A program made the position numbers and the translations under genes. Below are positions 27,798 through 62,111 of a DNA stretch of 64,000 nt, piece by piece (position 1 is the first letter of the stretch; the number at the start of each line of letters is the position of its first letter). The DNA lies in the IMG/VR virus record IMGVR_UViG_3300049828_000286. One strand, 5' to 3'. Source of the DNA: an uncultured virus (IMG/VR IMGVR_UViG_3300049828_000286) (Duplodnaviria; Heunggongvirae; Uroviricota; Caudoviricetes). The notes under the pieces are model-generated. The model was not told the DNA's origin and did not search any database. It was given only the letters and a program-made list of their open reading frames with translations.

Positions 27798-28545
27798 AGA
27801 TGTACTGCTCAATCCTGCACAGTGGCAGCTGGAGACTTGTGCGCGCATCCAGAATGGCCTGCGTATAGATCCACAGGTTAGGTGGGTGCTCTGGAAGGTC
27901 GCTCTTTGTGATCTCGCTATTGAGGTCTGACTCAAGGCTGTTCAGGAGCTCCTCGACCTGTGGCAGCGTGTACTTCCCATGCCTGATGTCCAGGAGCAAC
28001 TGCTGGCCCGTGGCGATAGGGAGCTGGATACGACGCTCTCGCGCATACTCAAGGCCCTGCAGCCCTAGCCGTGCGGCATGCATGGCGTACTTGGTGTCGA
28101 AGCCGTACTGTGTGGTCAGGTATTGCCTGTTCACGTCCTTCTGGCCTCGACGACCCATGAGGCGGTCCTTCTGGTCACGCATATACCCCAGGTATGACCG
28201 AAGAATACCCTTATGTGGTAGGTCTTCGATGATGCCGTCCATGACGGACTTCAGGATACGGCTCTCGCCTGAATCGACCACCGGGGCAAACAGCAGCTCC
28301 AGGAGCGTCGGGTTACCCTTGCTAATGAGCCGCATGAAGTGCTGCCACTCAAAGATTTGCGTCTTCGTGCGCGAGGATTCCATGACCTCAAAGGGTCGAT
28401 GGGTCGTGGCTAGCCGTTCCGATGGAGGATTAACACTCAGACACTTGTAGTCGTAGTCGGAACCTAGACTATTAAGGCCATACGCCCTGGAGCCCACCAG
28501 AAAAATCGCAATTGTGTTGTCGTGATACGGACGATTAGAGTTCAC
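27796..28545 (-). CDS. DNA polymerase beta-superfamily nucleotidyltransferase (YcgL/RlaP-like)
   Basis: VGSRAYGL..GSDYDY, KGNPTLLELLF, FDTKYAMHAARL and LLDIRHGK motifs. Confidence 0.85.
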   Translation of the reverse strand: MNSNRPYHDNTIAIFLVGSRAYGLNSLGSDYDYKCLSVNPPSERLATTHRPFEVMESSRTKTQIFEWQHFMRLISKGNPTLLELLFAPVVDSGESRILKSVMDGIIEDLPHKGILRSYLGYMRDQKDRLMGRRGQKDVNRQYLTTQYGFDTKYAMHAARLGLQGLEYARERRIQLPIATGQQLLLDIRHGKYTLPQVEELLNSLESDLNSEITKSDLPEHPPNLWIYTQAILDARTSLQLPLCRIEQYI

Positions 28546-29011
28546 TGCAATGCCACTCCTTGGTCCTGGCGAGGACCGATCCAGCCATGCGCATGCGGTT
28601 TCTGTGGTTACCGAACATGAGGTGTTGGTCGAATCCTTCAGTGGGATATAGTGTTAACGTGTAGCAATGAAAATTGGCACACTGAAGGTGTCGCCACTTT
28701 CCATACAGAAGCCCATTCGCCATGATCACGGGAAGGCTTATCATAAGTGATGGGTCACTCACCTTCCGCCGATAACAGCCGTTCTTGTACTCCCATTCAC
28801 TATTGGGGTGCAATGAATTTATGTCGACACATAGACTTCCATAATGAAATCTCAGCGTGCGACTTCCATTTAAGTACTCCTGGTCATCCTCTGTGAATCT
28901 GTATCTGTGGAACTTGCTGACAGGACTGTGGTCGCTCCGTTTATAGCCATGGAGTGTCCATGCCAAGATTTCCCGATGGCACACTAATTCAAGCTCGTTC
29001 CTTGGCTTCAT
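28535..29011 (-). CDS. Hypothetical protein (weak member of the tagged family)
   Basis: AT-richer ORF with N-terminal REILAWTLHG. Confidence 0.55.
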   Translation of the reverse strand: MKPRNELELVCHREILAWTLHGYKRSDHSPVSKFHRYRFTEDDQEYLNGSRTLRFHYGSLCVDINSLHPNSEWEYKNGCYRRKVSDPSLMISLPVIMANGLLYGKWRHLQCANFHCYTLTLYPTEGFDQHLMFGNHRNRMRMAGSVLARTKEWHCSEL

Positions 29012-29012
29012 A

Positions 29013-29047
29013 AATAGAAACCCAGCGCATCGTGGTGACTGCGCTGG
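29013..29047 (-). terminator. Intrinsic terminator
   Basis: On the - strand, CCAGCGCA...TGCGCTGG followed by GTTTCTATTT. Confidence 0.55.
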
Positions 29048-29070
29048 TGTCAGACTGGCACACTGTGCCG
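29048..29070 (-). repeat. Dispersed element, copy 3
   Basis: The - strand reads CGGCACAGTGTGCCAGTCTGACA, with only the palindrome centre differing. Confidence 0.9.
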
Positions 29071-29075
29071 CTAAT

Positions 29076-29462
29076 CTACTCTACGCATGTGAAATCCACG
29101 CTATAGACGGTCATTTGACCCTGGTTCACTGGGCTATGCCAGAGGGCGACAGATGCTGAACAATCTCTGTCGCATGTTATTGTGACGACCGCATTAGCCT
29201 GGGCCCCATTGACAGGCCCATAGACATCGTCAAGATTTAGAGCCCATCGTTCACCTGGTGACACCAGGAATGTTCTACGTCCAACTGTCTCGACTCCTTC
29301 AAACTTGACGTCTAGTTGAACACGAAGTGGGACCTTGTGTGGGTTACCGCCACTGAGCCATGTCTGCCGGTAGAGTCCACCATTTCGCCAGATGCCGGCC
29401 TCAGTCGCTAGTCCTACGGGGTGCCCCGCAAAACACCGGCCTGAAGCCGCCTGCCCAAAGGG
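29076..29462 (-). CDS. Beta-rich domain lacking its own start; possible -1 frameshift extension of the upstream secreted protein
   Basis: Protein-like reading LATEAGIWRNGGLYRQTWLSGGNPH... with no ATG/GTG near its 5' end. C CCT TTG lies at 29462-29456. Confidence 0.45.
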   Translation of the reverse strand, partial: PFGQAASGRCFAGHPVGLATEAGIWRNGGLYRQTWLSGGNPHKVPLRVQLDVKFEGVETVGRRTFLVSPGERWALNLDDVYGPVNGAQANAVVTITCDRDCSASVALWHSPVNQGQMTVYSVDFTCVE

Positions 29463-29863
29463 TCGATTGCGTTGCTCGGATCGGATGCCAGGAGTGCCTC
29501 TGCTCCAGTCACTGAGAATCGAATACTGAGAGGAATACCACGTGGAAACTGATCCACCGGAATCGGTGCGATTGAAAAGCAGCCCATTGCCCCGCTTCCG
29601 TTGCCGAGCCTGGTAATCGCTGTCTTGGCTACCGGGATCGTGACTGTAGGCGACGCTGCACCGACGCGGGTCGCGATCACTGTGCCTGAGGTGATTGACG
29701 CCCAATCCGTGTCGGGATATTCGAAATAGAGGGCGACCGGTGACGTAATTACTGACAGCGGACCAGTACCAGTGGGTGGGGTTGCCGCGCAGGATGGATG
29801 AACCTGGGCGAATGCTGGCATAGACACCAGCGAGAACATGAGTGCGATAATCAACTTCTTCAT
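29414..29863 (-). CDS. Secreted protein with a Sec signal peptide
   Basis: Classic signal peptide MKKLIIALMFSLVSMPAFA-Q. Confidence 0.75.
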   Translation of the reverse strand: MKKLIIALMFSLVSMPAFAQVHPSCAATPPTGTGPLSVITSPVALYFEYPDTDWASITSGTVIATRVGAASPTVTIPVAKTAITRLGNGSGAMGCFSIAPIPVDQFPRGIPLSIRFSVTGAEALLASDPSNAIDPLGRRLQAGVLRGTP

Positions 29864-30177
29864 TAGCTAATGAGCTCCTTAATCTCTTCCTTAATGGCCG
29901 CCCGCTCCTCCTGGAGCTTGACGATGCGTTCCTGTGCTGCCTTGATATGAGCCTGCTGGTCTTCGATCTGCTCCTTAATGAGAAGGAGGCGACGGAACGG
30001 GTCACTCTTTCGCTTGTGTAGCCCCTCAAGAATGCGTTCCAGTTCCTTCTCCTTGTCCTGATTTGGCTGCGGGTCTTCAGGATATGGATAGAGGTAACTG
30101 TAGAATGGGTCGCGCGCTGTTGTGGTCTGCTTGACGTAGTTGTCGGCGTCGTTAGGAGTGATGTACATGATTGACAT
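29863..30177 (-). CDS. Coiled-coil hypothetical protein
   Basis: Heptad-rich C-terminus, TAATG-coupled to the next gene. Start uncertain. Confidence 0.55.
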   Translation of the reverse strand: MSIMYITPNDADNYVKQTTTARDPFYSYLYPYPEDPQPNQDKEKELERILEGLHKRKSDPFRRLLLIKEQIEDQQAHIKAAQERIVKLQEERAAIKEEIKELIS

Positions 30178-36026: not shown

Positions 36027-36293
36027 TCAAATCCTCATAAAGGTGAAAAGAGCCGACAGGTAGCTCCCGTTGTAGGCCAGGAACTTGAACGCTGGCTCGC
36101 CGTCGTCATAAGAAATTGGCATGAGCCCGATGCGACACAGCCCGACGATGACCCATGAGAATACACCGTCCAGATCGCCGCACTGTATACACAGGCGCAT
36201 TGGCATCCCGAGACAAATGACCTTCATCTTTTCCTGATTGCAGTACGTACATGTCTTCACGACTTCACCCATTCCTTCACTCGTCCGCCCCAC
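36027..36293 (-). CDS. Small CxxC-containing hypothetical protein
   Basis: CTYC and CIQC motifs. The start is probably a GTG near 36260. Confidence 0.5.
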   Translation of the reverse strand: MGRTSEGMGEVVKTCTYCNQEKMKVICLGMPMRLCIQCGDLDGVFSWVIVGLCRIGLMPISYDDGEPAFKFLAYNGSYLSALFTFMRI

Positions 36294-36634
36294 GCCGAGA
36301 GTTCAGTATAAACGCTGTCCTTCTTAATGGTCGGCAATTTTCCGGACATCGCCAACCTCCGCATCATCGCAACGCCAAGGATGAAATCCGGGTAGTATTC
36401 ATAGTTTTCCATAGATTGGAAGTTCTGCTCTACCCATCGTATCGCATTCAGTCTGGTCATGTCTGAGGGGTAGATCGCGCAATACAACAAAAACGCCTGC
36501 GCCCATCTGCCTCTTTTCACTTGCATCAAGAACACTATCTCGCGTTTTTGATTCAAGATGAACGCACATCTCAGCGGCGGTTTATGACCAGCAAATTGCA
36601 TCGCGATCACTTCTTTGTCAAATGGCTTCACCAC
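36257..36634 (-). CDS. Hypothetical protein (tagged family)
   Basis: N-terminal DKEVIAMQFAG. Confidence 0.55.
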   Translation of the reverse strand: MVKPFDKEVIAMQFAGHKPPLRCAFILNQKREIVFLMQVKRGRWAQAFLLYCAIYPSDMTRLNAIRWVEQNFQSMENYEYYPDFILGVAMMRRLAMSGKLPTIKKDSVYTELSAWGGRVKEWVKS

Positions 36635-43031: not shown

Positions 43032-43367
43032 TCATAATCTCATCCCACTCCACTTAGATACCTGAATCTTTCCAAGGCACACCACCCATTGTGTGGATGT
43101 GATGGTGGGATTCGTTGAAGCTAGTCCTCCAAGCAGTTCAATGGTGAGAGCGATCCGTGCTGGATCGAGCTTCGCGTGTCTAGAGAACTTCTCTATGCAG
43201 TTGACGAAGTCAGCTCCTCTGATGTAAACCAAGTTTCGCCTTGCTTCTATTGACCGCTCGTCTATGCCAATTGTACGCCTAGCCGGATCCCATAGAATGT
43301 CATAGACCTTTTCACCGACGAGTTTAGCAGCGATAATGGCTCGTTGTTGCTGCGTGGTTAGTGCCAT
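43032..43367 (-). CDS. Hypothetical protein (tagged family)
   Basis: QRAIIAAKLVGEKVY. Confidence 0.65.
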   Translation of the reverse strand: MALTTQQQRAIIAAKLVGEKVYDILWDPARRTIGIDERSIEARRNLVYIRGADFVNCIEKFSRHAKLDPARIALTIELLGGLASTNPTITSTQWVVCLGKIQVSKWSGMRL

Positions 43368-45957: not shown

Positions 45958-46837
45958 TCACAGACTTGTCATTGCGAAGCCGGATGAACCGTGGAAACCG
46001 CATGGCATTCTCTGTCAGCCGGTCATACCGCACCGTGACCACACAGGGGAACTGCCAGCGTGGGGCGCTCTTCCTTTCGGCGTCCCTGAATCCACTCCCC
46101 ACCCGACCCACGTCACGCCCAGTACCATCCTGGAGTGTGAGTGCGCCCATCATGGCCGCATTGCCATCCATCGGTGTCCAACCGGTGGCCACCAGGTCAG
46201 CCTCTAGCCAGGGCTTCCAGCGATAACAGTTAGCGCGGACTGTCTTGCTGCTACACGTCAGGAGGGTCGGCTTGTCCGTTTGCCATGCCACCAGGCCTTC
46301 CCATTGTTCGGCAATCGCCCTCGCCTGCAGCTGGTCAAACGTGCCTTCCAGGTGTGGGGCCTGCTGGACGACGGGTATCGGCCAAGATGACAGGACTTCC
46401 CTGAGCAGGGCTTGCCGTTCCCCATAGGGCACCTGCCAGGCTGGAAGGCCACTCAGGAACAGCAGGTCGAAGGCCATGAACGCCATACGCTTACCCACCT
46501 GTCGATACTGTGAGGTCTTCCCATGTGACCGGGCAATGCTCTGCGCTGCCTCGAAGTCATCCCGTTCGCCATTCCAGACGATGAACTCGGTATCCAGAAT
46601 CGTTCCCACAGGCCACGCCAGCATGGCCGCTGCCAGGTCTGGGAAACTGTCCGTGACTCGCTCGATCTTGCGGCTATAGATGTCCGCACGAGTCTCGCCC
46701 CTGACGAGCAAGTGCCGCAGGCCGTCATACTTCCGCTGGAAGGCATACTGAGCCGGTGGCAGGCTGCTCTCCAGGTCCATCGGCTTTGGTAGCATCAACG
46801 TGCTGGGAAGTCGGTCGAACGTCGTCAATAGTGACAT
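45935..46837 (-). CDS. ATP-dependent DNA ligase
   Basis: Motifs I KYDGLR, III ILDTEF, IIIa AFDLL, IV WEGLV, V RWKP and VI MRFPRF. Confidence 0.9.
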   Translation of the reverse strand: MSLLTTFDRLPSTLMLPKPMDLESSLPPAQYAFQRKYDGLRHLLVRGETRADIYSRKIERVTDSFPDLAAAMLAWPVGTILDTEFIVWNGERDDFEAAQSIARSHGKTSQYRQVGKRMAFMAFDLLFLSGLPAWQVPYGERQALLREVLSSWPIPVVQQAPHLEGTFDQLQARAIAEQWEGLVAWQTDKPTLLTCSSKTVRANCYRWKPWLEADLVATGWTPMDGNAAMMGALTLQDGTGRDVGRVGSGFRDAERKSAPRWQFPCVVTVRYDRLTENAMRFPRFIRLRNDKSVNEATCLE

Positions 46838-47324
46838 TGCGTAGTATCTCCGCTACCTCACCATTTTCGATGAGCGTTATTGACCCTCGGCTTAGTGCAT
46901 TCACTTTCTCTATCGACACCTGCGAAAGCGCATACGCAGTGAGCATAAGGTTGTGCTTGTTGACCCTACACCGAAGAAGCTTCTGAATCGCCTTGTCCCA
47001 GTATTCCTGCGTGATAGGCTCTAGTTGTTGTATGGTTGGGCGATAGTACTGGCGTGCTGGAAATCTCCGATTGAAACGACTTCGCATGGTAAAAACAGGC
47101 GGAGCTGGCGTCTCGGCATTTTTAGGACCGTAGACGGTTAGCCGGAACGTGCGGTACGTCTTAGTGGTGCCGTCAATGCCGTAAATGTGAAGGGCTCGGC
47201 CGGGTTTACCGCCGTGTTCATCATGGATAGCGCGCGACCAGCCAATCCTGGCGTCATACAGTTTTCCGCCGACCAGTCGAGCCGCCATGACAGACTTCAG
47301 GCTTACAAGTTGTTGTCTAGCCAA
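46725..47324 (-). CDS. Hypothetical protein (tagged family)
   Basis: KSVMAARLVGGKLY. The 3' end overlaps the ligase start by about 110 nt. Confidence 0.55.
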   Translation of the reverse strand: MARQQLVSLKSVMAARLVGGKLYDARIGWSRAIHDEHGGKPGRALHIYGIDGTTKTYRTFRLTVYGPKNAETPAPPVFTMRSRFNRRFPARQYYRPTIQQLEPITQEYWDKAIQKLLRCRVNKHNLMLTAYALSQVSIEKVNALSRGSITLIENGEVAEILRNVTIDDVRPTSQHVDATKADGPGEQPATGSVCLPAEV

Positions 47325-47806
47325 TGGTTAACCCTGTCTTCGTCATTGATGATTCTATCCATGATAAACTCACACTGAAGAACGAATCCTATGGTTAGTG
47401 CGAGCTTAAACTGCTCGTCTCCATTGTCTGCGCCGAGATACCATTGCTTAAGCTGATTAATGACGTCGCTTTTTGTATATACCAATGCGCTGCTATATAT
47501 ATTCTCGTAGTGTGGGTCCTCGTACTTGCATAAGTCCAAACGCATTCCGTCGCTTTGAACAAATAGCCATATTCTATATGGCAACAATGCTGCTCCTGTA
47601 ATTTTCATGGCGATGTCACGCCTGACGTAGTCCCTATTGATCTCTTTTGACAGCAGCGAAGAAGTCAATGAAGAGGTCGGAAACGTACGAAGGCACCCAT
47701 TTACTATGTGACGTAGCCCAGGTCTGAGCTCCGAGTAGCGTAGTGACTGTGCATCTACCATATGCTGACTGCCTTCCACCTTTCCCGGATCGCTTTGTCT
47801 TGTCAA
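47303..47806 (-). CDS. Hypothetical protein (AT-rich, internal tag-like segment)
   Basis: RRDIAMKITG..LPY. Start uncertain. Confidence 0.45.
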   Translation of the reverse strand: MTRQSDPGKVEGSQHMVDAQSLRYSELRPGLRHIVNGCLRTFPTSSLTSSLLSKEINRDYVRRDIAMKITGAALLPYRIWLFVQSDGMRLDLCKYEDPHYENIYSSALVYTKSDVINQLKQWYLGADNGDEQFKLALTIGFVLQCEFIMDRIINDEDRVNHWLDNNL

Positions 47807-47942
47807 CGCCGTGAGTTGGCTCTTGTGAGTTCAGCGTGTATGATACTTTGAGGCCGTTACCTGCAGCCTTGTAGTACCAGTGTTTACCCGTGGACAGTTC
47901 GAGCGCAATGACAATTTTGTCTATGGCCTTCTTGTCTGGCAT
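47634..47942 (-). CDS. Hypothetical protein (tagged family)
   Basis: DKIVIALELSTGKHWY. Confidence 0.5.
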   Translation of the reverse strand: MPDKKAIDKIVIALELSTGKHWYYKAAGNGLKVSYTLNSQEPTHGVDKTKRSGKGGRQSAYGRCTVTTLLGAQTWATSHSKWVPSYVSDLFIDFFAAVKRDQ

Positions 47943-48157
47943 GTCTTCTCGATATCCATAACGGTCGCTATAAATCGCAGCGGTTCGCGGGTAGTTGGTA
48001 TCTCAATCCAGGCGTCTTCGAGTGTTCCCATGAAGTCAAGGGTTTCACCGTCCCTGATTAAGAAACGTCGACCTGCTCTCGCCTGAAGTTCACTCCATGG
48101 ATACGGCTCGGTATTAGCTAGCTGCGACGCTATCGCCAGCTTCTTCAGGTACCCCAT
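47921..48157 (-). CDS. Hypothetical protein (tagged family)
   Basis: AGGAGG RBS; KKLAIASQLANTEPY. Confidence 0.55.
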   Translation of the reverse strand: MGYLKKLAIASQLANTEPYPWSELQARAGRRFLIRDGETLDFMGTLEDAWIEIPTTREPLRFIATVMDIEKTCQTRRP

Positions 48158-48467
48158 ACGCCTCCTGGTAGCGATCAATCAGGAACACGATGTACTCACC
48201 TAGGGTCTGCTTATCGAAGTTGTGTGAGTCGCAATAGATCCGTACGACAGCACCAGTCTTAAGCCCAACTTTCCTTCTGTTATTCTCAAGAACAACAGTA
48301 CGTTGAATGCCTGACTTGGCGATGAATGTCCCGCTGTCCTTTCTGAGTAGCCTGGTCTCTTCGGATTGCTTTGAGACGCTTGCTGTTCTTTTGATGGTCG
48401 TTGTCTGGCCCCCAAGTTCGAGGGCCAGCTTGATCTTCTGAAGCTCAGACTCCAACGGCTTCCTCAT
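48114..48467 (-). CDS. Hypothetical protein (tagged family)
   Basis: QKIKLALELGG. Confidence 0.55.
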   Translation of the reverse strand: MRKPLESELQKIKLALELGGQTTTIKRTASVSKQSEETRLLRKDSGTFIAKSGIQRTVVLENNRRKVGLKTGAVVRIYCDSHNFDKQTLGEYIVFLIDRYQEAYGVPEEAGDSVAAS

Positions 48468-53357: not shown

Positions 53358-53371
53358 AGGTATTGTGTGTA

Positions 53372-53722
53372 TCAGTCAAGCTGATTGATCTGTTCCTGCA
53401 CTTCAAGGAAGAACAGGGTAACTGCTGCGAGGTCCTGGAATGGCGTGGCGACCATGTTGACAGTCCATGGGTGGCCATCACTCCATCTGCACTTTTCTAC
53501 CTTGGCGAAGAGCGTCCCACGTCGCTTACTGAACTCTCCGGTGCCTTCATATCGAGACGTCTTTGGGTTGTACTTACGCTTCTCTGCCAGTCTGTCTGGC
53601 AGGCGAAGCTCGAAGCTCTGTGGCTTCTTAGTGCCACGCTCCCTCCGGACGACAGTGCGGTACTGTCGTCCAGAGAGTTGAGCCGCCAGAGTAGCTTTCT
53701 GTAGCTGTTCTGGTGTAAGCAT
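53372..53722 (-). CDS. Hypothetical protein (tagged family) between the MoxR and vWA genes
   Basis: MLTPEQLQKATLAAQLSGRQY. Confidence 0.6.
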   Translation of the reverse strand: MLTPEQLQKATLAAQLSGRQYRTVVRRERGTKKPQSFELRLPDRLAEKRKYNPKTSRYEGTGEFSKRRGTLFAKVEKCRWSDGHPWTVNMVATPFQDLAAVTLFFLEVQEQINQLD

Positions 53723-53726
53723 GCTG

Positions 53727-54842: not shown

Positions 54843-54963
54843 AGTGTGTTCTCTCCGTGCCCAGAAGGGGCAATTAACAACTGAACAAAATGGCTGGGAT
54901 GGCCTTCGCCACACCACCCCACGCCATGGGGAACCCTGAAGTCAGGCGAAGTGTAGCACAGTA

Positions 54964-55704
54964 TCACGTACTAAAACCAGTGTTTTCTGTGTAGTCCCGC
55001 AGAAACGACTTCTTGCCCATGCCATGCGCCAGAACGGCAATGTTCTTGACACCCGGCCTGGCTCCATTACACAGTCGACACTTTGCACAGGTGGTTCGCT
55101 TGCCACCCTCTTCGGTGGCTGGACAGATGATCTCGTCCTTCTGTAGCTCAGCCATACTGCCAATGACCCGGAATGTCCTCCAGCCCTTTGCGTTGGCGAT
55201 GAGCTTGTCTGTTGCCGTCTCCACGCTGGCCATGAGCCACTGTCTGAAGCGCTTGTCGCAGGTTCTCCAGGTATGCGTATACCCGGTCCATCCCTTTGCC
55301 CTGCGTGACAGCTGCGTGAAGACCCGATAGGGCAAGGCGGTAGGCTCTCCATACGCCCCGTGTCGTAGGACATGCTCCCGCATCCCAGGCATGCCCCTCG
55401 CATAGTTGCCACGTCGAAACGCTTCCCAGACTGCACGCGGCCCCTGGAACGGTTTGACATAGCAGATGCGATCCTGCTTCCCGTCTGCCCGAATGGTTGT
55501 CCGCAACGGACAGGAACCACAGATGGCCGCATCAGCCCCATTGACTGACGCGACTGTCGGTTGTACCTCCCGGTGTAGTAACCAGGCTTGCAGCATCGGC
55601 CCTGTTTTCGGGTTTTTGCTTGGTTGGTCGAACCCAGTGACCACGCAAATAATCGGTTCACCGTTGAGTTCGGAGGCTCCGTCGAACACGACGTACCCCT
55701 GCAC
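54964..55704 (-). CDS. Cys-rich protein, possibly a radical-SAM-derived fold
   Basis: NPKTG, ICGSCP...CYV, RHGAYGEP, GYTHTW, MASVE and CPA...CAKCRLC. Confidence 0.55.
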   Translation of the reverse strand: MQGYVVFDGASELNGEPIICVVTGFDQPSKNPKTGPMLQAWLLHREVQPTVASVNGADAAICGSCPLRTTIRADGKQDRICYVKPFQGPRAVWEAFRRGNYARGMPGMREHVLRHGAYGEPTALPYRVFTQLSRRAKGWTGYTHTWRTCDKRFRQWLMASVETATDKLIANAKGWRTFRVIGSMAELQKDEIICPATEEGGKRTTCAKCRLCNGARPGVKNIAVLAHGMGKKSFLRDYTENTGFST

Positions 55705-55719
55705 TGACGCGTACCTCCT

Positions 55720-56040
55720 TTACTCCAGCCTATGTGTCACTACTTTGCCATACATGACGAGATACCCAGAAACAAATGGTTTTGGCTTGCGTCCATCTAG
55801 TAGCATCAGAGTCTTATTGACCCTGTCTTGGTCGAGATCCTCTGAGAGCCTCATCTTCAGCAGTACGTCGTCCCATGACCCGTATGCTGTAAACAGCTCC
55901 ACGGCTGCGTCGTTATTCGGCTGTACGCAAAACACGCCTTCTACTTGACCTTTATTCCATGACCACGCAGATATTTGAATGTCATAGGGTTGAGCGTCCT
56001 GAAGCAAGACAGCGACCTTCTCCTTCTGTGTCAGCTCCAC
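55720..56040 (-). CDS. Hypothetical protein (tagged family)
   Basis: AGGAGG before the GTG at 56040; KEKVAVLLQDAQPY. Confidence 0.55.
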   Translation of the reverse strand: MELTQKEKVAVLLQDAQPYDIQISAWSWNKGQVEGVFCVQPNNDAAVELFTAYGSWDDVLLKMRLSEDLDQDRVNKTLMLLDGRKPKPFVSGYLVMYGKVVTHRLE

Positions 56041-56416
56041 TTGCCCTCCTACGCTTCTCTCGGAATCCACTCAGCCTGACTTCTCTGTTGGCGATCAGCC
56101 ATCCGTTTTGTGGAATGAACCGCTGCTGTTCGACCCTTCTCAGCGTCCTGAGTGTTGTATAGACCTTCAGTGGGTCGAGTTCTGGATCGTCCCGAAATAG
56201 CCTCAGGTAATTCTTAAAGCAGCCGAGCCCCTCTTCGTAGCATTTGACCGTTATCGCGGAGTCACCTTCTTTGTCTACAGACAGATACCAGTGCCGTCGC
56301 CCGGCCCCTGCATGGCCATACCAGTAGAGGTCATACCCTTCCCCTCCTGTCTCGAGAAGATGGGCAATCATGGCCTTCTTGCTAGGCTTCGCTCGCCTCT
56401 TTCCCTCTGTGCTCAC
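55982..56416 (-). CDS. Hypothetical protein (tagged family)
   Basis: AGGAGG before the GTG at 56416; KKAMIAHLLETGGEGY. Confidence 0.55.
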   Translation of the reverse strand: MSTEGKRRAKPSKKAMIAHLLETGGEGYDLYWYGHAGAGRRHWYLSVDKEGDSAITVKCYEEGLGCFKNYLRLFRDDPELDPLKVYTTLRTLRRVEQQRFIPQNGWLIANREVRLSGFREKRRRASGADTEGEGRCLASGRSTL

Positions 56417-56795
56417 GCAACCTCCTGTAACTCTCTGGCCAGCTGCCATTGTGTCCAGGCCGGCTAAACCACTCATGGTTCTCCATGCCCACGATGTAAT
56501 CCTGTGGACTTGGAATGAAGCGGTTTGCAAAGTCCTCCAGGACATGCTGCTCACCGATCAGCTTGACCGGTACAGTCTTGCCATCACTGTTCGTGATCGT
56601 CGTGCCGAACACGCGCTCCAGGATGACGCCGATGAACCAGCTGTTGTGTGTAAGGACACGATGGCGATTGTCAGAGATGGCAATCTTGCTGCTGTCCATC
56701 AGGTCATGGATGGGCAAGTAGTCCTCAGCCTTGCCGCCATACCGCCTGGCCGAACTCACCGCATGATGATAGGGCTTAGACACGTGGCAGCTCAT
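56382..56795 (-). CDS. DUF6915-like conserved phage protein
   Basis: PYHHAVSSARRYGG..EDYLPIH..MDSSK...RHRVLTH...IGEQHVLED. Confidence 0.7.
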   Translation of the reverse strand: MSCHVSKPYHHAVSSARRYGGKAEDYLPIHDLMDSSKIAISDNRHRVLTHNSWFIGVILERVFGTTITNSDGKTVPVKLIGEQHVLEDFANRFIPSPQDYIVGMENHEWFSRPGHNGSWPESYRRLREHRGKEASEA

Positions 56796-57180
56796 TGACC
56801 ACACTGACCTCGTACTGAGTGGCAAAGACCTTGTCGTAAATGCGGTCCCGTACCTCGTCTGGCAGGCTCATAATCAGGTCGCCGACATCCGTGTCTTGCC
56901 CTGCGATGATGCCAGCTGCCACCTTCTCCTTCTCGGTCAGCTCTGTAATGACACATTTCCTCATGTCCTGGTCGTGGCCCCATCCACCCTGGACGGTGTC
57001 GAACCAGACTGACAGATCGTCATCGCCCATCTCGTCGTAGAAATCCCGCGTCTGCTCCGTGACCCACTTTTTAGCTTCTTCCAGTGAGCCTGTCACGAAC
57101 GCGGGAGACATCCCGTCAGAGCTGCTGTACGTTTCGTCGTTGTACTCCCAGCTGGACTGTCCCACCACGTACTGCTTCAT
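56776..57180 (-). CDS. Acidic hypothetical protein
   Basis: ATGA-coupled, with WEYNDE. Confidence 0.6.
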   Translation of the reverse strand: MKQYVVGQSSWEYNDETYSSSDGMSPAFVTGSLEEAKKWVTEQTRDFYDEMGDDDLSVWFDTVQGGWGHDQDMRKCVITELTEKEKVAAGIIAGQDTDVGDLIMSLPDEVRDRIYDKVFATQYEVSVVNELPRV

Positions 57181-57482
57181 ACCTGGTCGGCCTCGATGTG
57201 CTGGTAGTACGCTTCGAGAACAGCAGTACGAAGGGCCGTGTTGGCCTGTGGATTCCCCTGGTCGATGGGTACGAGGTACACGTACTTCTGGTCCTCGCCA
57301 TCCTTGTCCTTGTAGCGGCGGTCAGGGAAGTCTACGAATGGCTCCTTGCCGTCGATCTTGGACTTCCAGATGCTGATACCGCGAAGCTTGAGGCCATCCA
57401 GTGTGCCCTTCTCGAACCAGATTTCCGCCTCGGCAAGCTTGCTCTCTGGACGGCGAGTGTTCTTAATGATACGGATACGCAT
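57177..57482 (-). CDS. SpoVG-like nucleic-acid-binding protein
   Basis: LRGISIW...FVDFPDRRY...LRTAVLEAY, with an AGGAG RBS. Confidence 0.7.
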   Translation of the reverse strand: MRIRIIKNTRRPESKLAEAEIWFEKGTLDGLKLRGISIWKSKIDGKEPFVDFPDRRYKDKDGEDQKYVYLVPIDQGNPQANTALRTAVLEAYYQHIEADQV

Positions 57483-57511
57483 AGATACTCCTGTTTTGTG
57501 TGTGACTTGGG

Positions 57512-57667
57512 TTAAAACAACTGGCCCGCGATGAGCCGACTCGTCTTGATTTTCAGCAGAATGCGCTGAAGCAGGCTCAGCCCGTGCAGTCGCTCTTCTT
57601 TGAGGGACTTGGCAATCGCATCTCTCATCGTGACGCGTGTGCTCTTGCCATCAGAATAGAACATCAT
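57512..57667 (-). CDS. Small hypothetical protein
   Basis: ATG at 57667 coupled to a 40-aa ORF at 57664-57786. Confidence 0.45.
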   Translation of the reverse strand: MMFYSDGKSTRVTMRDAIAKSLKEERLHGLSLLQRILLKIKTSRLIAGQLF

Positions 57668-57778
57668 GCGTAGTACTCTATGATCGCCATGGTCCATTCA
57701 CGTGACTCTTTCTGGTACTCCAGGTCATCCGTGATTCGCTGGATAACCTCAAGGATGCTCTCGATGGTGGCATCCATC

Positions 57779-58195
57779 TCAGTCATGCTCGTATTCCTTT
57801 ACTTCTGTTCGACCATCGGCGTACACAACAACCTTCGCGTGATCGCCAAAGGTCTCATGGAAGAAGTCTTCATCGAATCCATCGAGAAACGCACTCAGCT
57901 TGCTCTCGAGTAGCTCGTGGCCACCGTATCCAAGTTCCTCGTCGATGCCACGTTCATCGTCCTCTCCGTCAAACCGTGCGAATGGATAGGACGTGTTTAC
58001 GCCAAACTCGCACGGATCTCCGTCGTTGAAGTAGGGCGTGTATTGTGTCCATCCGAAGTACAGCAGCGTCGGAAACTCCTCGAAGATTTTCTTCGCTGTC
58101 TCAGTAAACATGCTCTCCATGAGAGTGTTCTTTTCTGCCGACAAATCGGAGATCTTCTGAATGATCTCGAGGATCCTCTTGTTCGTATCGTTCAT
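57779..58195 (-). CDS. Conserved-looking acidic phage protein
   Basis: FGWTQYTPYFNDGDPCEF...FGDH...EYEHD. Confidence 0.7.
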   Translation of the reverse strand: MNDTNKRILEIIQKISDLSAEKNTLMESMFTETAKKIFEEFPTLLYFGWTQYTPYFNDGDPCEFGVNTSYPFARFDGEDDERGIDEELGYGGHELLESKLSAFLDGFDEDFFHETFGDHAKVVVYADGRTEVKEYEHD

Positions 58196-58364
58196 GATTG
58201 CTCCAGGACGAGAACGGGCATTCCCTGATGCCTTAGGTGTTCAATGATGCGTCGAGCTGACGTGTCACACGCACGCACACAGTAGTGTCCAAGCCAGTGT
58301 GCGTCCAGTGGATCAAATGGCCAGTGCCGACAGTAGATGAACCAGGTCCGGTCACGCTTCCAGG

Positions 58365-58661
58365 CTACGGCACCGTGGCAGTGTCGATGTCCTCCATGAA
58401 CGCATTCAGGAAGCCGACGATCTCGCGGAACTGTTGCGCACTGAGCTGTGATGCCGACCCGGCGATCCTGATGTCCACTTGATCGAGGTCCCATGACAGG
58501 CCATACGAAACGCTCAGTAGCCATTTGCGATTTCTCTCATTCGCGATGTCAAACCGGAGACGACTACTACTCGTGTCTTTCTGGATGCACAGGGACATTC
58601 CATGACTGATGCCCGTCGAGACTATCGCCTTATCGCTGTTCTTCGTGTTCATCCTTGACAC
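58365..58661 (-). CDS. Hypothetical protein
   Basis: 98-aa ORF, with a competing overlapping frame at 58192-58524. Confidence 0.4.
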   Translation of the reverse strand: MSRMNTKNSDKAIVSTGISHGMSLCIQKDTSSSRLRFDIANERNRKWLLSVSYGLSWDLDQVDIRIAGSASQLSAQQFREIVGFLNAFMEDIDTATVP

Positions 58662-58780
58662 GCCTCTTATGTTTAGACCGTCTACCGTCCCTGTCCTTCT
58701 CTGTCCGATGTGGCCGTGTGGGCTTTGGCACTGGTACGCGCGGCAGCCAGCGCTTCTTCTTATCCTTCGTAGGTTCTTGT

Positions 58781-59023
58781 TTATATTCTGCGGATCTCAT
58801 CAGCGGTAAGCAACATGCGATAGTCATTTCGGTCAATGGCCCACTTGTACATTTGTGTAAGGGTCATCCAGTGATCATCACTCATGTGGTACCCGTGATA
58901 GTGGCCCGTAACACGAATCACGTAGCCACTGGATAGCCTGGCGTACTTATAGGGCTCCTCTCCAGAGAGTTTGGCCGCAATGAGCAGCTTGTCAATCTTA
59001 CCCAGTTGCTCGGCTACGGCCAT
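58781..59023 (-). CDS. Hypothetical protein (tagged family)
   Basis: DKLLIAAKLSGEEPY. Confidence 0.6.
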   Translation of the reverse strand: MAVAEQLGKIDKLLIAAKLSGEEPYKYARLSSGYVIRVTGHYHGYHMSDDHWMTLTQMYKWAIDRNDYRMLLTADEIRRI

Positions 59024-59474
59024 GTTGCCGTCTCTCCTTTGCGCGCTCTCGGAGACCTTCCTCACTATACTTAAGGCTCTTTTGCGCTATCCCTGCCCAG
59101 ACAATCGTGCGTCCAGACCAATACCGCTTTGAGATGGTTCGATGCCTCAGTTCCATCCATAATCGGTACGCGTGCGAGACGTGATTGGCCATCTTCATGT
59201 TATTGACCAAGTTCATGGTCGCTTCCTGAAACGATGTACCACATCCTACGCCGAGTTCAGTGAGTGAATAACCTGCACCGAAATTACCTTTCCTCAGCTG
59301 CGCTGTCATGGTAAATCGGGTGTAGGTCTTTCTGGAGCCATCCCACTTAGGATAGTCGGCGTCAAGTCTGACGCACACCTCGGAGGGGATGTTCTCGAGA
59401 TGCACGACCGTCACTTCCTTTGGCGTGAACATCTGCGATGCGCTTGAATTTTCCTTTTCTGATGTTGTTTCCAT
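58998..59474 (-). CDS. Hypothetical protein
   Basis: 158-aa ORF. Confidence 0.5.
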   Translation of the reverse strand: METTSEKENSSASQMFTPKEVTVVHLENIPSEVCVRLDADYPKWDGSRKTYTRFTMTAQLRKGNFGAGYSLTELGVGCGTSFQEATMNLVNNMKMANHVSHAYRLWMELRHRTISKRYWSGRTIVWAGIAQKSLKYSEEGLRERAKERRQHGRSRATG

Positions 59475-59763
59475 AGTTGAGCACGCCTTCTCTGATTTCT
59501 GTACGAGGCCGATAGCCGCAAAACGTGAGCCACGTCATCGCAGCTCTCGCTCTGTCATGTTTAGCCAATATTGCTAGCAGCCTGGACATGTCATCCTGCC
59601 ACGTCACTAGACTCCATGTGACGATGGCCTCTAGTAGGCATCCATCGACGGACACGTAGAGCTTTCTGACCGTGGAGCTGTCGTAGTAGTGAACCGTGAA
59701 GGCCCTTGCGCCTAAGAGCTTAGCCGCGACGATGTCCTTATCGCTAAAGACCACTAAGGACAT
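59362..59763 (-). CDS. Hypothetical protein (tagged family)
   Basis: DKDIVAAKLLGARAF. Confidence 0.55.
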   Translation of the reverse strand: MSLVVFSDKDIVAAKLLGARAFTVHYYDSSTVRKLYVSVDGCLLEAIVTWSLVTWQDDMSRLLAILAKHDRARAAMTWLTFCGYRPRTEIREGVLNYGNNIRKGKFKRIADVHAKGSDGRASREHPLRGVRQT

Positions 59764-60340
59764 CGGCTACCTCGTCATAGTGAACTGGCCGGAAGTCCCA
59801 GACATCCACGCCGACATTGAGCATGCGGCCATTCGTCTTCCAGGCCTCGTGAACATGGCCATGAATGAGCAGCCCACCGCTGTCCACTGGCCTGTACGGC
59901 GAGAGCTTCTCTTCTCGGCCATCGACGTGATCGCCGTGGTATGGCAGATGACACAGCCGTACAGCTTCCGTCTTGCCATGGAGGTGAAAGAGCAGCGTAT
60001 CCGTCTCGTGAATGCTCTTGAAGTACTTCAGGTACTCCTGCTCCCAATGCTCTCGCATACCTGGACGCTTGTGGTGATAACAGCGATGCGTCCTGTCGTG
60101 GTTGCCGTCGATGAGATACTTCTGGCCGTTCAGCCTGTCCATGATAGGCAGGCTTTTGGCAATCTCACCCATGGCCACGTCGCCAAGGACCGTTACGAAG
60201 TCATTGGGCCGCACGACCGCGTTCCAGTTGTCCACGATGGCCTCTGTCATGTGGTCAAGGTCTGTGAATGGCCGTTTGGATAGCTCGATGATGCGGGCAT
60301 GGCCTAGGTGAAGGTCGGCCGTGAACCAGGAATTGCTCAT
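59744..60340 (-). CDS. Calcineurin-like metallophosphoesterase
   Basis: DLHLGH, LGDV, GNHD, CHLP, HGHVH and NVGVD motifs. Confidence 0.9.
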   Translation of the reverse strand: MSNSWFTADLHLGHARIIELSKRPFTDLDHMTEAIVDNWNAVVRPNDFVTVLGDVAMGEIAKSLPIMDRLNGQKYLIDGNHDRTHRCYHHKRPGMREHWEQEYLKYFKSIHETDTLLFHLHGKTEAVRLCHLPYHGDHVDGREEKLSPYRPVDSGGLLIHGHVHEAWKTNGRMLNVGVDVWDFRPVHYDEVADVLSGL

Positions 60341-60657
60341 TGGATTTCTACCAGCTCCCATCGTGGTCCTGGCTTCTTGACCCCAGCAACGACTTCATCG
60401 AACGTGTACCCTGAAATGCGCCTAACCATGAAGCCGGTTTTATTCCCACTCACAATTTCTTGGGCTCCAGTCGCAGCCACATCAGCCAGTATGTCTGCGG
60501 TCACCTTTTCAGCAGTCAAGTTCTCGATCTTGCGAGCGTGCTTCGCCTGCAGAGCAAGGACTTTTGCTGAGGCAACATCAGGCGCGACGACCCAGCACCC
60601 ACAGTGCGCCTTGTTGTGAACTCGAAAGATATCCATGCCAGAGGATCCCGTGCTCAT
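60337..60657 (-). CDS. Hypothetical protein flanked by 16-bp direct repeats
   Basis: ATGA-coupled at both ends. Confidence 0.6.
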   Translation of the reverse strand: MSTGSSGMDIFRVHNKAHCGCWVVAPDVASAKVLALQAKHARKIENLTAEKVTADILADVAATGAQEIVSGNKTGFMVRRISGYTFDEVVAGVKKPGPRWELVEIQ

Positions 60658-61073
60658 TGGATTTCTCCTACTGGGTTGTCCGGGAACGTCGCATGGCGAA
60701 TAAGCGTGTATGCCATAGCAAACTCACACTCATACTTCCGCCATCGATCCGGATCTAAGCCAAGATCTCCGGCTGTCTCGTCTCGATAGATGCCTTGCTG
60801 CGCGAATCGCATTCGCTCGATACATGCAGCCATCATCTCCAACCTTGCGTTCTCTGGCCTGTGCCGTGGCTGGATACTCCCGACCATGAAATCAGGGCCG
60901 TATATCCAGTCCCGCTCGCCAAAGTAGAAATAAGCCCTCCAGCACGGAGTGAAGACTTGTGATCTGGTACACAGAGACAGCCTCACGAGCTTTACCTCGC
61001 ACCCATAGAGCAGTGCTCCAGCCATACCATGACGGGCGATCTGTTCGTGTGACGCTGTATGAAGGTCTAGCAT
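60654..61073 (-). CDS. Hypothetical protein (weak member of the tagged family)
   Basis: RHGMAGALLYG. Confidence 0.5.
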   Translation of the reverse strand: MLDLHTASHEQIARHGMAGALLYGCEVKLVRLSLCTRSQVFTPCWRAYFYFGERDWIYGPDFMVGSIQPRHRPENARLEMMAACIERMRFAQQGIYRDETAGDLGLDPDRWRKYECEFAMAYTLIRHATFPDNPVGEIQ

Positions 61074-61092
61074 ACCATGGAGCTTAATGCGA

Positions 61093-61782
61093 CTATGATG
61101 TTTTTGGGCCGTACATGAGCCAGAACAGTGTGCTCAACGCGCTATTGATGGAGGCCGTCTTTGCCTTGATGTCAATGCCCCCACTGTGAAGCGTGCATGT
61201 TACGTTGTTGTAGTCAGTGGTGAAGTTGAAATCAAACGTCCCTCCACGAGCGACACTCATCGCGAGCTGGTCAGGTGTTTTCTCGACGTTCTGTCGGTTC
61301 ACCCTCATGCCATATAATCGGGCCGAGGCATTTTGTCCCAGAGCCGATGGAACGAGGGCACACAGCGCGTCCATTTGTTGGCGAATGTTTCGCTGCGCAC
61401 TGCTGTCCTTGTCGCGTGCTGATAGCAGCGTTTGCCACAAATCACGGCTACTGGTGATGAATTCCTGCATCCGCTTGACCTGTGTCGCTGTCTTGTAGTG
61501 CCTGAACACCTCGATGCTCCTGTGGCCATCTTCCCCAGATATTCGATAGTTATGCGGGATGTACGTATGCAACGGGGCCTGGAGGTTCGATAGCGCTACC
61601 TTGAGATGACGGCCTTCTCGTCGCTGAACCTGATACACAGGCTGATCCTCGACTGGCCTGTCAGGGAAAGCTGTGGGATCGCGATACTCCGAGTACTCCC
61701 ACGATGACACACCGACATCAGGCGCAGGGAGTTCGGTCCATCCGAGCGCCTGTACCAACATGGCAAGCTGTGCTTGTGTCAT
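61093..61782 (-). CDS. Hypothetical protein
   Basis: GGAG RBS; 229 aa. Confidence 0.6.
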   Translation of the reverse strand: MTQAQLAMLVQALGWTELPAPDVGVSSWEYSEYRDPTAFPDRPVEDQPVYQVQRREGRHLKVALSNLQAPLHTYIPHNYRISGEDGHRSIEVFRHYKTATQVKRMQEFITSSRDLWQTLLSARDKDSSAQRNIRQQMDALCALVPSALGQNASARLYGMRVNRQNVEKTPDQLAMSVARGGTFDFNFTTDYNNVTCTLHSGGIDIKAKTASINSALSTLFWLMYGPKTS

Positions 61783-61850
61783 GACATCTCCAATCCAAGC
61801 GGCCTCTGTACCAGCCGATCATTGTCCACGAGTTGTATGCATTGGCCTCG

Positions 61851-62111
61851 TCAGCCGTTCTCCTCGCGGTTAATGGCCAAGACCGTTATGGCCATGCGAA
61901 CATCCTGGTCTTTCACAGCAAGAGCCCTAAGCATGCTGGCCGTGAATTGCAAGCGACGATTATAGCCAGTTAACCATCCCTCGCGTCGACCCTTCAGCAC
62001 ACACCAGCTGCGTTTTATTGGCCGTCTACACAACACACCAGCTGGCCTATAGACGTAAGGCTTAGCCTGCTGTAGTCTGGCCGCCACTACCAGTCGCTCG
62101 AATGTCGTCAT
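61851..62111 (-). CDS. Hypothetical protein (tagged family)
   Basis: ERLVVAARLQQAKPY. Confidence 0.6.
   Translation of the reverse strand: MTTFERLVVAARLQQAKPYVYRPAGVLCRRPIKRSWCVLKGRREGWLTGYNRRLQFTASMLRALAVKDQDVRMAITVLAINREENG

What the first reader, a model, noticed from the sequence alone, without database searches (positions are those of the whole stretch)
28535..62111. About 18 small divergent proteins share an N-terminal AxxLxG helix tag and are interleaved between core early genes
Seen in sequence, listed by start coordinate. Strong matches: RAIIAAKLVGEKVY (43367), KSVMAARLVGGKLY (47324), KATLAAQLSGRQY (53722), KLLIAAKLSGEEPY (59023), KDIVAAKLLGARAF (59763), RLVVAARLQQAKPY (62111), KLAIASQLANTEPY (48157), KIKLALELGG (48467), KIVIALELSTG (47942), KEKVAVLLQDAQPY (56040), KAMIAHLLETGGEGY (56416). 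Weaker matches: KEVIAMQFAG (36634), REILAWTLHG (29011), KKAIAGGLLG (45957), RRAVAGGFCG (45626), KRQLAIALMG (49724), HGMAGALLYG (61073), and an internal RRDIAMKITG..LPY in 47303-47806. Most are 80-200 aa, basic and look AT-richer than neighbouring core genes. Most have a beta-rich middle and one hydrophobic C-terminal helix (IALTIELLG, LAAVTLFFL, MAITVLAI, IAFGVYLLT, FAMAYTLI). The middles show no alignable similarity by eye. Inference: either an extremely diversified paralogue repertoire, or unrelated cargo carrying a common docking tag, for example for capsid loading and injection (compare the T4 internal-protein capsid targeting sequence), for the MoxR-vWA chaperone, or for hetero-oligomer assembly of anti-defence effectors. 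I do not recognise this as a described family.
Basis: partly seen in the sequence, partly recalled or inferred. Interest (0 to 1): 0.88.

Follow-up and report, generated by a model that had tools for sequence, protein, structure and literature searches.

The report
Orphan small-protein paralogue family in phage
An uncultured freshwater phage has multiplied one previously unseen gene for a small protein into about nine very diverged copies scattered among its early genes; the shared "tag" is the first helix of their common fold, and such expansions are a known habit of phages whose function here is untested.

Summary
All 17 N-terminal strings exist at the stated minus-strand ORF starts, but only nine are more alike than chance allows.

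- **Motif is real.** It scored 243, against 148 +/- 6 for shuffles and a maximum of 240 in 200 real-segment controls.
- **It is not a detachable tag.** The same nine proteins carry a second, collinear C-terminal motif, [DE]xx[DP]x[RK]-x3-T-x3-[LIF], mostly 50-64 residues downstream. AlphaFold puts the N motif into helix 1 of a compact alpha-beta3-alpha2 domain.
- **Conservation is at protein level.** Nucleotide identity by codon position is 0.56/0.59/0.33.
- **Weaker matches fail.** The other eight candidates (seven listed weak matches and one internal match) do not rise above noise.
- **No relatives found.** There is no Pfam, PHROG, NCBIfam, PADLOC or PDB match. No relative appears among 1.84 billion representative proteins or in 81 phage loci.

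Verdict: a lineage-specific, fast-diverging paralogue family in a novel siphovirus-like freshwater phage. This is a new family of a known kind. Function is unknown; the best guess is a panel of early binders of host or phage macromolecules.

The parts
58781..59023 (-). Member, 80 aa: the minimal domain and the seed of the motif.
   Evidence: Top seed in the unsupervised scan. Leave-one-out HMM rank 1 with E 1.3e-4, aligned over HMM positions 5-77. C-block leave-one-out rank 2 of 49. AlphaFold pLDDT 85.5: H2-19, E27-30, E33-38, E41-46, H55-64, H68-79. AAGGAG lies upstream of the ATG.
43032..43367 (-). Member, 111 aa: the domain plus a C-terminal beta-hairpin tail.
   Evidence: Leave-one-out HMM rank 1 with E 1.1e-4, N part only. 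C-block leave-one-out rank 1 of 49. AlphaFold pLDDT 69.8 with the same element order plus E93-97 and E100-105.
59362..59763 (-). Member, 133 aa.
   Evidence: Leave-one-out HMM rank 1 with E 5.3e-3, aligned over HMM positions 5-107. C-block rank 2 of 49.
61851..62111 (-). Member, 86 aa, pI 11.1.
   Evidence: Leave-one-out HMM rank 1 with E 4.6e-4, aligned over HMM positions 7-84. C-block rank 1 of 49. pI.
47921..48157 (-). Member, 78 aa.
   Evidence: Leave-one-out HMM rank 1 with E 0.04. C-block rank 2 of 49. AGGAGG lies upstream.
55720..56040 (-). Member, 106 aa, GTG start, acidic.
   Evidence: hhalign against the five-member profile A5: E 3.2e-5 over 91 columns, rank 1 of 85. C-block rank 1 of 49. 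Leave-one-out HMM only rank 2, E 0.87.
55982..56416 (-). Member, 144 aa, GTG start. The public gene call starts 15 codons later.
   Evidence: hhalign against A5: E 2e-3 over 76 columns, rank 3 of 85. C-block rank 1 of 49. Not found by the leave-one-out HMM. The alternative start is seen.
46725..47324 (-). Probable member, 199 aa, TTG start, with a long insert between the two motifs.
   Evidence: Leave-one-out HMM rank 1 with E 0.14. hhalign E 4.7e-4 but over the N motif only, 16 columns. C-block rank 3 of 49 at residue 120.
53372..53722 (-). Weakest core member, 116 aa. It lies between the MoxR-type ATPase gene and the DUF2201/VWA gene.
   Evidence: N motif with a one-residue deletion. Leave-one-out HMM rank 4, E 4.1. 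hhalign E 0.015, at noise level. C-block rank 35 of 49, so not supported.
47303..47668 (-). Possible tenth member, if it starts at the TTG at 47668 (the longest ORF reaches 47806).
   Evidence: Best C-block score among 48 non-members (7.1, against 3.7 for the next), and an N-like motif 16 residues after that TTG. Not in the top 22 of 85 by hhalign.
36257..36634 (-). Possible outlier, 125 aa.
   Evidence: Best non-training hit of the N-motif HMM, but only E 0.32. hhalign E 0.013 over 18 N-terminal columns, at noise level.
47634..48467 (-). Two ORFs of this span, 47634-47942 and 48114-48467 (member 47921-48157 lies between them), sit inside the tandem cluster 46725-48467 and carry motif-like N-termini.
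   Evidence: Not above noise. Only their position among members raises the prior.

Best explanation
Nine ORFs, possibly ten, are diverged paralogues of one orphan domain of about 80 residues, with the order helix 1, three beta strands, helix 2, helix 3. Seven are well supported and two are probable. They arose by repeated, partly tandem duplication inside the early/replication arm of a novel siphovirus-like freshwater phage.

The 'AxxLxG tag' is one face of helix 1 ([KR]-x2-[IV]-A-A-[KRQ]-L), followed by the helix cap and the aromatic residue that opens strand 1. A one-faced motif on helix 3 (R-x3-T-x3-[ILF]) accompanies it. These are the fold-keeping residues, and possibly a conserved surface. 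The sheet, the loops and the C-terminal tails have diverged beyond recognition.

- **Shown:** the motif enrichment, protein-level conservation, the second collinear motif, the predicted common fold, and the absence from all libraries.
- **Inferred, about 30% confidence:** the proteins are intracellular early proteins that use the variable surfaces to bind different host or phage macromolecules (host takeover or counter-defence). Most are strongly basic, so nucleic acid or acidic protein surfaces are likely partners.
For: - The unsupervised scan recovers the motif: 243 against a shuffle maximum of 178 and a real-segment maximum of 240.
- Leave-one-out HMM: 6 of 9 rank first among 876 non-training ORFs, and three of those alignments run to the C-terminal helices.
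- MAFFT finds invariant A16, L19 and T73 (numbering of the ORF starting at 59023) in all 9. In the five tightest members R69 is invariant as well.
- C-block leave-one-out profile: ranks 2, 1, 3, 35, 2, 1, 2, 1, 1 of 49. The best window was the expected block in 9 of 9.
- The pattern [RK]x3Tx3[LIF] occurs in 7 of 9 members against 4 of 48 other small ORFs, though the pattern was defined after seeing the alignment.
- The spacing from N motif to C motif is 50-64 residues in 7 of 9.
- hhalign of a five-member profile against 85 other window proteins puts the four remaining members in the top five. Two of them align over the full length, at E 3.2e-5 and 2e-3.
- Nucleotide identity in the motif is 0.56/0.59/0.33 by codon position. 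Third-position identity is only 0.46 (53 of 115) where the residues are identical.
- AlphaFold with the 9-row family alignment gives pLDDT 85.5 and pTM 0.73 for the 80-aa member, with helix 1 at pLDDT 79-93. The 111-aa member gets the same element order at pLDDT 69.8.
- Members sit partly in tandem: 46725-48467, 55720-56416 and 58781-59763.
- Members have lower GC3 than the core genes.
- Five of nine have a GGAG/GAGG-type site just upstream of the start.
- The same DNA, with at most one changed letter per listed piece (0 in 20 of 22, 1 in 2), is present in contigs of runs from two further studies, so it is not an assembly artefact.
Against: - With the N motif cut off, unanchored leave-one-out HMMs find the left-out member near the top in only 3 of 9 cases (ranks 6, 10 and 14 of 876). 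The other six rank 205-408.
- An unsupervised scan of residues 31 onward finds no motif above shuffles: 140 against a mean of 141.
- Most of the hhalign score comes from the N motif. For 47324, 53722 and 36634 only the N motif aligns.
- 53722 fails the C-block test, at rank 35 of 49.
- The two AlphaFold models used the same 9-row alignment, so they are not independent.
- No outside homologue exists to test conservation or selection.
- The laid contigs showed only stray single-letter differences, none in a member ORF (one listed, at 51875), so no dN/dS test was possible.
- Nothing bears on function directly.
Confidence: 0.72

Rival explanations
1. Portable N-terminal tag. In this reading, otherwise unrelated small proteins share a short helix that docks them to one machine. 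Candidates are the scaffolding core (for packaging and injection, as with the T4 internal-protein capsid targeting sequence), the neighbouring MoxR/VWA pair, or each other.
For: - The N motif is by far the strongest shared element.
- For 47324, 53722 and 36634, profile methods align nothing else.
- Unanchored C-terminal parts mostly do not find each other.
- 53722 lies between the MoxR-type ATPase and the DUF2201/VWA genes.
- In T-even phages, diverse internal proteins share only a capsid targeting sequence (passage read in PMC3012670).
Against: - A second collinear motif at conserved spacing is present in 8 of 9.
- Full-length profile alignments exist for five members.
- AlphaFold models the motif as a confident helix of a compact domain (pTM 0.73), not as a loose peptide.
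- The genes lie in the early/replication arm, on the strand opposite the head genes.
- No conserved cleavage-type site follows the motif in the alignment.
Confidence: 0.13
2. A nucleic-acid-binding or toxin-like small fold. In this reading the members are relatives of an alpha-beta3-alpha family such as HicA/dsRBD-like proteins, or of an anti-CRISPR of the AcrIIA4 type, too diverged for sequence methods to detect.
For: - Weak fold-search rows: HicA chain 6hpb_A at Foldseek rank 3 (E 1.4, TM 0.30), and a phage HicA-like protein in BFVD (E 0.3).
- 7 of 10 members have pI > 8.
- The alpha-beta3-alpha(-alpha) topologies of HicA and AcrIIA4 are recalled from memory, not taken from a call.
Against: - No Pfam hit to HicA or anything else at E up to 10.
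- A profile of the family finds nothing in PDB sequences at E up to 10.
- Most VIA alignments leave out helix 1.
Confidence: 0.07
3. Chance resemblance of amphipathic N-terminal helices, or a repeated DNA element (promoter, ribosome-binding region or recombination box) that happens to be translated.
For:
- Real interior segments can reach 240 on the same statistic.
Against: - The observed 243 exceeds all 400 controls.
- The motif HMM gives no hit better than E 2.2 in 19,592 six-frame ORFs of 81 other phage loci.
- Third codon positions are no more alike (0.33) than unrelated sequence, while first and second positions are 0.56 and 0.59.
- The independent C motif co-occurs with the N motif.
Confidence: 0.04

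Closest known systems
Expanded families of small orphan proteins in the early or variable regions of large phages. This includes the hyperplastic-region ORFans of T4-type phages and paralogue arrays of jumbo phages. The closest examples at hand are earlier unchecked notes of this scan: e1-5404208, e1-6037435, e1-307566.
   Same: Many very diverged copies of one small protein in the early arm. Only a few fold-keeping residues near the ends are kept. There is no known function, composition is atypical, and the copies are partly in tandem.
   Different: This genome is only 76 kb and siphovirus-like, not a jumbo phage. The copies are mostly dispersed between replication and repair genes rather than forming one packed array. 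No relative was found in any other genome, whereas several of the earlier cases belong to large phage-wide families.
Capsid targeting sequence (CTS) of T-even phage internal proteins (PMC3012670, passages read).
   Same: A short conserved N-terminal segment on small, basic, otherwise very diverse phage proteins.
   Different: In T-even phages only the CTS is shared. Here a second motif and a predicted common fold accompany it. The genes lie in the early arm opposite the head genes. Neither cleavage nor packaging has been shown.
AcrIIA4 (PDB 5vw1_B, 5xbl_D) and HicA (PDB 6hpb_A), both small alpha/beta proteins.
   Same: Similar size and a similar order of secondary-structure elements. The topologies are recalled from memory. 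The fold-search rows are weak.

Membership tests
Intragenomic paralogue family (one domain, several copies) | Members recognise each other above background when left out of the model. | tested here: met
   6 of 9 rank first of 876 ORFs (E 1e-4 to 0.14). Ranks 2 and 4 and one miss account for the rest. hhalign of a 5-member profile puts the other 4 members in the top 5 of 85.
Intragenomic paralogue family (one domain, several copies) | Similarity extends beyond one short motif, with collinear motifs at conserved spacing. | tested here: met
   C-block leave-one-out ranks are 3 or better of 49 in 8 of 9. Spacing is 50-64 residues in 7 of 9. However, unanchored C-part HMMs succeed in only 3 of 9, and an unsupervised scan of residues 31 onward finds nothing.
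Intragenomic paralogue family (one domain, several copies) | Same fold in different members. | tested here: inconclusive
   Two AlphaFold models have the same element order, but both use the same 9-row alignment. No further folding jobs were available.
T4-type CTS-tagged internal (ejection) proteins | Only the short N-terminal targeting peptide is shared; the bodies are unrelated. | tested here: not met
   A second motif and full-length profile alignments are present in the core members.
T4-type CTS-tagged internal (ejection) proteins | The tag is removed by the prohead protease and the protein is present in the virion. | not testable with these tools
   This needs virion proteomics. No prohead protease gene lies in the window, and 12.4 kb of the contig was not available.
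HicA toxin family (Pfam HicA_toxin) | Match to the family profile. | tested here: not met
   No Pfam match of any kind at E up to 10 for 19 ORFs.
HicA toxin family (Pfam HicA_toxin) | Shared fold. | tested here: inconclusive
AcrIIA4-type anti-CRISPR | Shared fold. | tested here: inconclusive
Any curated family in Pfam-A, PHROGs v4, NCBIfam 20, PADLOC-DB 2 | Profile match. | tested here: not met
   No significant hit for any member in any of the four libraries.

The most novel reading that the evidence does not exclude
The conserved residues may be more than fold glue. They sit on single faces of helix 1 and helix 3 and include charged or polar positions: [KR] before the hydrophobic stripe, [KRQ] next to the invariant Leu, the Arg four residues before the invariant Thr, and the Thr itself. 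They could form one conserved docking surface for a common hub, such as the adjacent MoxR/VWA machine, a host hub protein or nucleic acid. The hypervariable sheet and tails would then each recognise a different target. On this reading the family is a set of phage adaptors built on one scaffold.
Probability: 0.15. Interest if true: 0.65.

Novelty: new member of a known kind. Interest (0 to 1): 0.35.

Why it matters
Expanded, fast-diverging small-protein families in phage early regions are prime candidates for host-takeover and counter-defence factors. This one is a clean example in a mid-sized, uncultured freshwater phage with no relatives in the databases searched. It supplies a compact 80-residue scaffold with two conserved helices and a variable sheet, which could be expressed and screened. 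On its own it is one more orphan family and opens no long-standing question. The report also corrects the more exciting reading, a transferable targeting tag on about 18 unrelated proteins.

Tried and rejected
**Searches for relatives that found nothing**
- Nucleotide search of 22 kb against 50,697 phage records: no match.
- The whole record of the nearest named phage (Tunturiibacter phage Tunturi_4, 28% identity on primase/helicase): no family match at E up to 10.
- Word-indexed search of 5.8 billion proteins with the family profile: only the window's own ORFs.
- Full HMMER search of 1.84 billion representatives: 8 hits at E up to 1e-3, all verified as the window's own. The 199-aa member did not appear.
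- IMG/VR scans with primase/helicase, DUF2201 and MoxR proteins: no close relative.
- 80 IMG/VR loci around distant DUF2201 homologues, plus the Tunturi_4 locus: the family HMM's best hit is E 0.22 and the N-motif HMM's best is E 2.2 among 19,592 ORFs.
- JGI metagenome scan with the protein at 63416-63793, meant to fetch the rest of the 76,440-base contig: nothing.
- A scan with alignment A5 was not possible because no stretch was conserved enough.
- ESM Atlas: best score 0.76, no lead.
- PDB sequence profile search: nothing at E up to 10.

**Structure and complexes**

**Other checks**
- Promoter and terminator scan of 43000-62500: 8 promoter-like sites, not enriched over shuffles (mean 10.9); 22 terminator-like sites against a mean of 12.2 +/- 3.8, with no pattern tied to the members.
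- Sequencing runs: no RNA holder is listed. The contigs of the non-source runs showed one listed single-letter difference (at 51875, outside the members), so no test of selection was possible.
- The DUF7448 protein (39192-39629) has a faintly motif-like N-terminus in the seed ranking, but the N-motif HMM does not support it.
The status of the possible members (47303-47668, 36634, 47942, 48467) therefore stays open.
- Earlier-scan look-ups by place and by sequence returned nothing.
- One literature search was seen as a listing only, and nothing from it was used.


Full report
**Setting**

The window is part of a 76,440-base contig of a novel tailed phage.
- The + strand from 1 to 27,730 carries the head scaffold, major head protein, adaptor, major tail protein, a 2,415-aa tape measure, a 2,267-aa protein without any PHROG match, endonuclease VII and a holin-like gene.
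- The - strand from 27,796 to 64,000 is the early/replication arm. It holds RlaP, ThyX, primase/helicase, two HNH genes, a helicase, DUF7448, a PD-(D/E)XK nuclease, DNA ligase, RNA ligase, Ku, a DUF2201 metallopeptidase/VWA protein, a MoxR-type ATPase, DUF6915, a phosphoesterase and an AAA_33 kinase-like protein.
- No whole genome is held for the window.
- The nearest named phages are Tunturiibacter phages, at 28% amino-acid identity on the primase/helicase. A 22-kb nucleotide search found nothing.
- The same DNA, with 0 or 1 changed letters in each listed piece (0 in 20 of 22), occurs in contigs of freshwater and freshwater-sediment runs from two studies besides the possible source. The sequence is therefore not an assembly artefact.

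Every one of the 17 strings is present at residues 5-15 of the ORF that starts at the stated coordinate. Each 14-residue window served as a seed, and its eight best BLOSUM62 matches in other ORFs were summed.
- The best seed at every width from 14 to 20 was the motif of the ORF starting at 59023. At width 12 the best seed was the same motif, in the ORF starting at 43367 or 59023.
- The observed score of 243 exceeded all 200 residue shuffles (mean 148.0, sd 6.1, max 178). It also exceeded all 200 sets of real interior segments (mean 175.9, sd 19.4, max 240).
- The top matches start at residues 6-10 of their ORFs.

Nine ORFs form the core, with starts at 43367, 47324, 48157, 53722, 56040, 56416, 59023, 59763 and 62111.
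- In leave-one-out full-length HMM searches against the window's 884 six-frame ORFs, six left-out members ranked first (E 1.1e-4 to 0.14). 56040 ranked 2nd, 53722 ranked 4th, and 56416 was not found.
- An HMM of the N block gave no non-training hit better than E 0.32 (36634) in the window.
- That HMM gave nothing better than E 2.2 in 19,592 ORFs of 81 other phage loci.

The motif is therefore real, specific to this phage, and carried by about nine ORFs rather than about eighteen.

**Protein or DNA?**

In the 14-codon motif of seven ungapped members, pairwise nucleotide identity is 0.56, 0.59 and 0.33 at codon positions 1, 2 and 3. Where the residues are identical, the third positions agree in only 53 of 115 cases. 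Conservation therefore acts on the protein, not on a repeated DNA element. Five of the nine starts have a GGAG/GAGG-type site just upstream.

**Tag or domain?**

MAFFT alignments of the nine show invariant A16, L19 and T73 (numbering of the ORF starting at 59023). They reveal a second block, [DE]xx[DP]x[RK]-x3-T-x3-[LIF]. In the five tightest members the Arg four residues before the Thr is invariant as well.

Evidence for a shared domain:
- A leave-one-out profile of this C block ranked the left-out member 2, 1, 3, 35, 2, 1, 2, 1 and 1 among 49 small proteins. In all nine, the best window was the expected block.
- The post-hoc pattern [RK]x3Tx3[LIF] is present in 7 of 9 members against 4 of 48 other small ORFs.
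- The C block lies 50-64 residues after the N block in 7 of 9. 47324 has a long insert.
- hhalign of a profile of five members against 85 other window proteins put the four remaining members in the top five. 56040 (E 3.2e-5, 91 columns) and 56416 (E 2e-3, 76 columns) aligned over the whole domain.
- AlphaFold with the nine-row alignment gave a confident compact model of the 80-aa member (pLDDT 85.5, pTM 0.73): H2-19, E27-30, E33-38, E41-46, H55-64, H68-79.
- The 111-aa member got the same order of elements plus a terminal hairpin, at pLDDT 69.8.

The conserved positions fall at i, i+3, i+4, i+7 on helix 1 and at i, i+4, i+8 on helix 3, so each is a single helix face. This is my reading of the alignment.

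Evidence against a shared domain:
- Without the N anchor, leave-one-out HMMs of the C-terminal parts place the left-out member near the top in only three of nine cases (ranks 6, 10, 14 of 876). The other six rank 205-408.
- An unsupervised scan of residues 31 onward finds nothing above shuffles.
- For 47324, 53722 and 36634, hhalign aligns only the N motif, and the last two are at noise level.
- 53722 fails the C-block test.
- The two structure models share one alignment.

On balance, a diverged paralogue domain explains the core best. A free-standing tag is not needed.

**The weaker candidates**

- 36634 is the best non-member, but it is at noise level.
- ORF 47303-47806 has the best C-block score of all non-members. 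It also has an N-like motif that would be N-terminal if translation starts at the TTG at 47668. hhalign does not support it.
- 47942 and 48467 lie inside the tandem cluster 46725-48467 but are not above noise.
- 45957 and 45626 are a separate pair of tandem paralogues (blastp E 0.022 over 110 residues).
- 29011, 49724 and 61073 have no support.

A joint two-motif scan that might have settled the possible members was not run (see Tried and rejected).

**Side claims**

- Seven of ten proteins have pI above 8 (median 9.7), against 47% of 47 other small ORFs.
- GC/GC3 is 0.51/0.56 in members, 0.53/0.63 in other small ORFs and 0.57/0.68 in 18 large genes.

**What it resembles**

No member matches Pfam (even at E 10), PHROGs, NCBIfam or PADLOC. 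A family profile finds nothing in PDB sequences.
- The word-indexed search of 5.8 billion proteins returned only the window's own ORFs. So did the full HMMER search of 1.84 billion representatives.
- The ESM Atlas gave no lead.

The T4 capsid targeting sequence is a fair analogy for 'diverse small proteins with a shared N-terminal piece' (passages of PMC3012670). Its defining feature, that nothing but the tag is shared, is not met here. The genes also lie in the early arm.

Earlier unchecked notes of this scan describe many expanded small-protein families in phage early regions. One of them has shared N- and C-terminal motifs. This finding is of that kind.

**How it most likely works**

- **Shown:** a lineage-specific family of seven to ten copies of an orphan alpha-beta3-alpha2 domain, conserved only on one face each of helix 1 and helix 3.
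- **Inferred:** duplication, partly in tandem, followed by fast divergence of the sheet, loops and tails. The proteins are made early and act inside the cell by binding different host or phage macromolecules. The strong positive charge of most copies points to nucleic acid or acidic surfaces.
- **Less likely but open:** the conserved polar residues on the two helices form a common docking surface, which would make the family a set of adaptors.

**Verdict**

This is a new family of a known kind and of modest interest.

Noticed in passing
window 45273-45957, - strand: Two adjacent ORFs, 45273-45626 and 45607-45957 (117 and 116 aa), are tandem paralogues of each other (blastp E 0.022 over about 110 residues). 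They have matching N-terminal and C-terminal segments. They form a second small orphan family, distinct from the main one.
   Followed up: partly
window 45935-46837, 48445-49389, 50572-51408, 27796-28545, - strand: The early arm combines Ku, an ATP-dependent DNA ligase, an RNA ligase and an RlaP-type nucleotidyltransferase. That is an end-joining and RNA-repair toolkit in one phage.
   Followed up: no
window 52092-54842, - strand: A DUF2201 metallopeptidase/VWA protein and a MoxR-type AAA ATPase flank one family member (53372-53722). The DUF2201 protein's best outside relative is only 39-46% identical.
   Followed up: partly
window 5799-13046 and 16368-23171, + strand: There are two giant late proteins. 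One is a 2,415-aa tape-measure-like protein (weak PHROG match). The other is a 2,267-aa protein with no PHROG match at all.
   Followed up: no
window 13050-13763 and 13985-15583, + strand: The N-terminal 100 residues of the 237-aa protein match residues 423-516 of the 532-aa tail-fibre-like protein (blastp E 3e-9). This is a shared module between neighbouring tail genes.
   Followed up: no
window 29076-30177, - strand: A 317-aa TTG-start ORF (29076-30029) overlaps two ORFs in other frames, out of frame. One (29414-29863) begins like a lipoprotein or signal peptide; the other is 29863-30177. It was not resolved which of these is the real gene.
   Followed up: no
window 57664-58195, - strand: The 40-aa ORF 57664-57786 and the next ORF 57779-58195 begin with similar 17-residue segments (53% identity, blastp E 0.038). 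This may be another small duplication.
   Followed up: no
window 43000-62500: The same DNA, with at most one changed letter per listed piece, is present in contigs of freshwater and sediment runs from two studies besides the possible source. The phage therefore seems widespread but almost invariant in the data at hand.
   Followed up: partly
window 35404-35730, 38908-39213 (- strand) and 23530-23943 (+ strand): Two HNH endonuclease genes lie among the replication genes, and an endonuclease VII gene sits after the tail genes.
   Followed up: no
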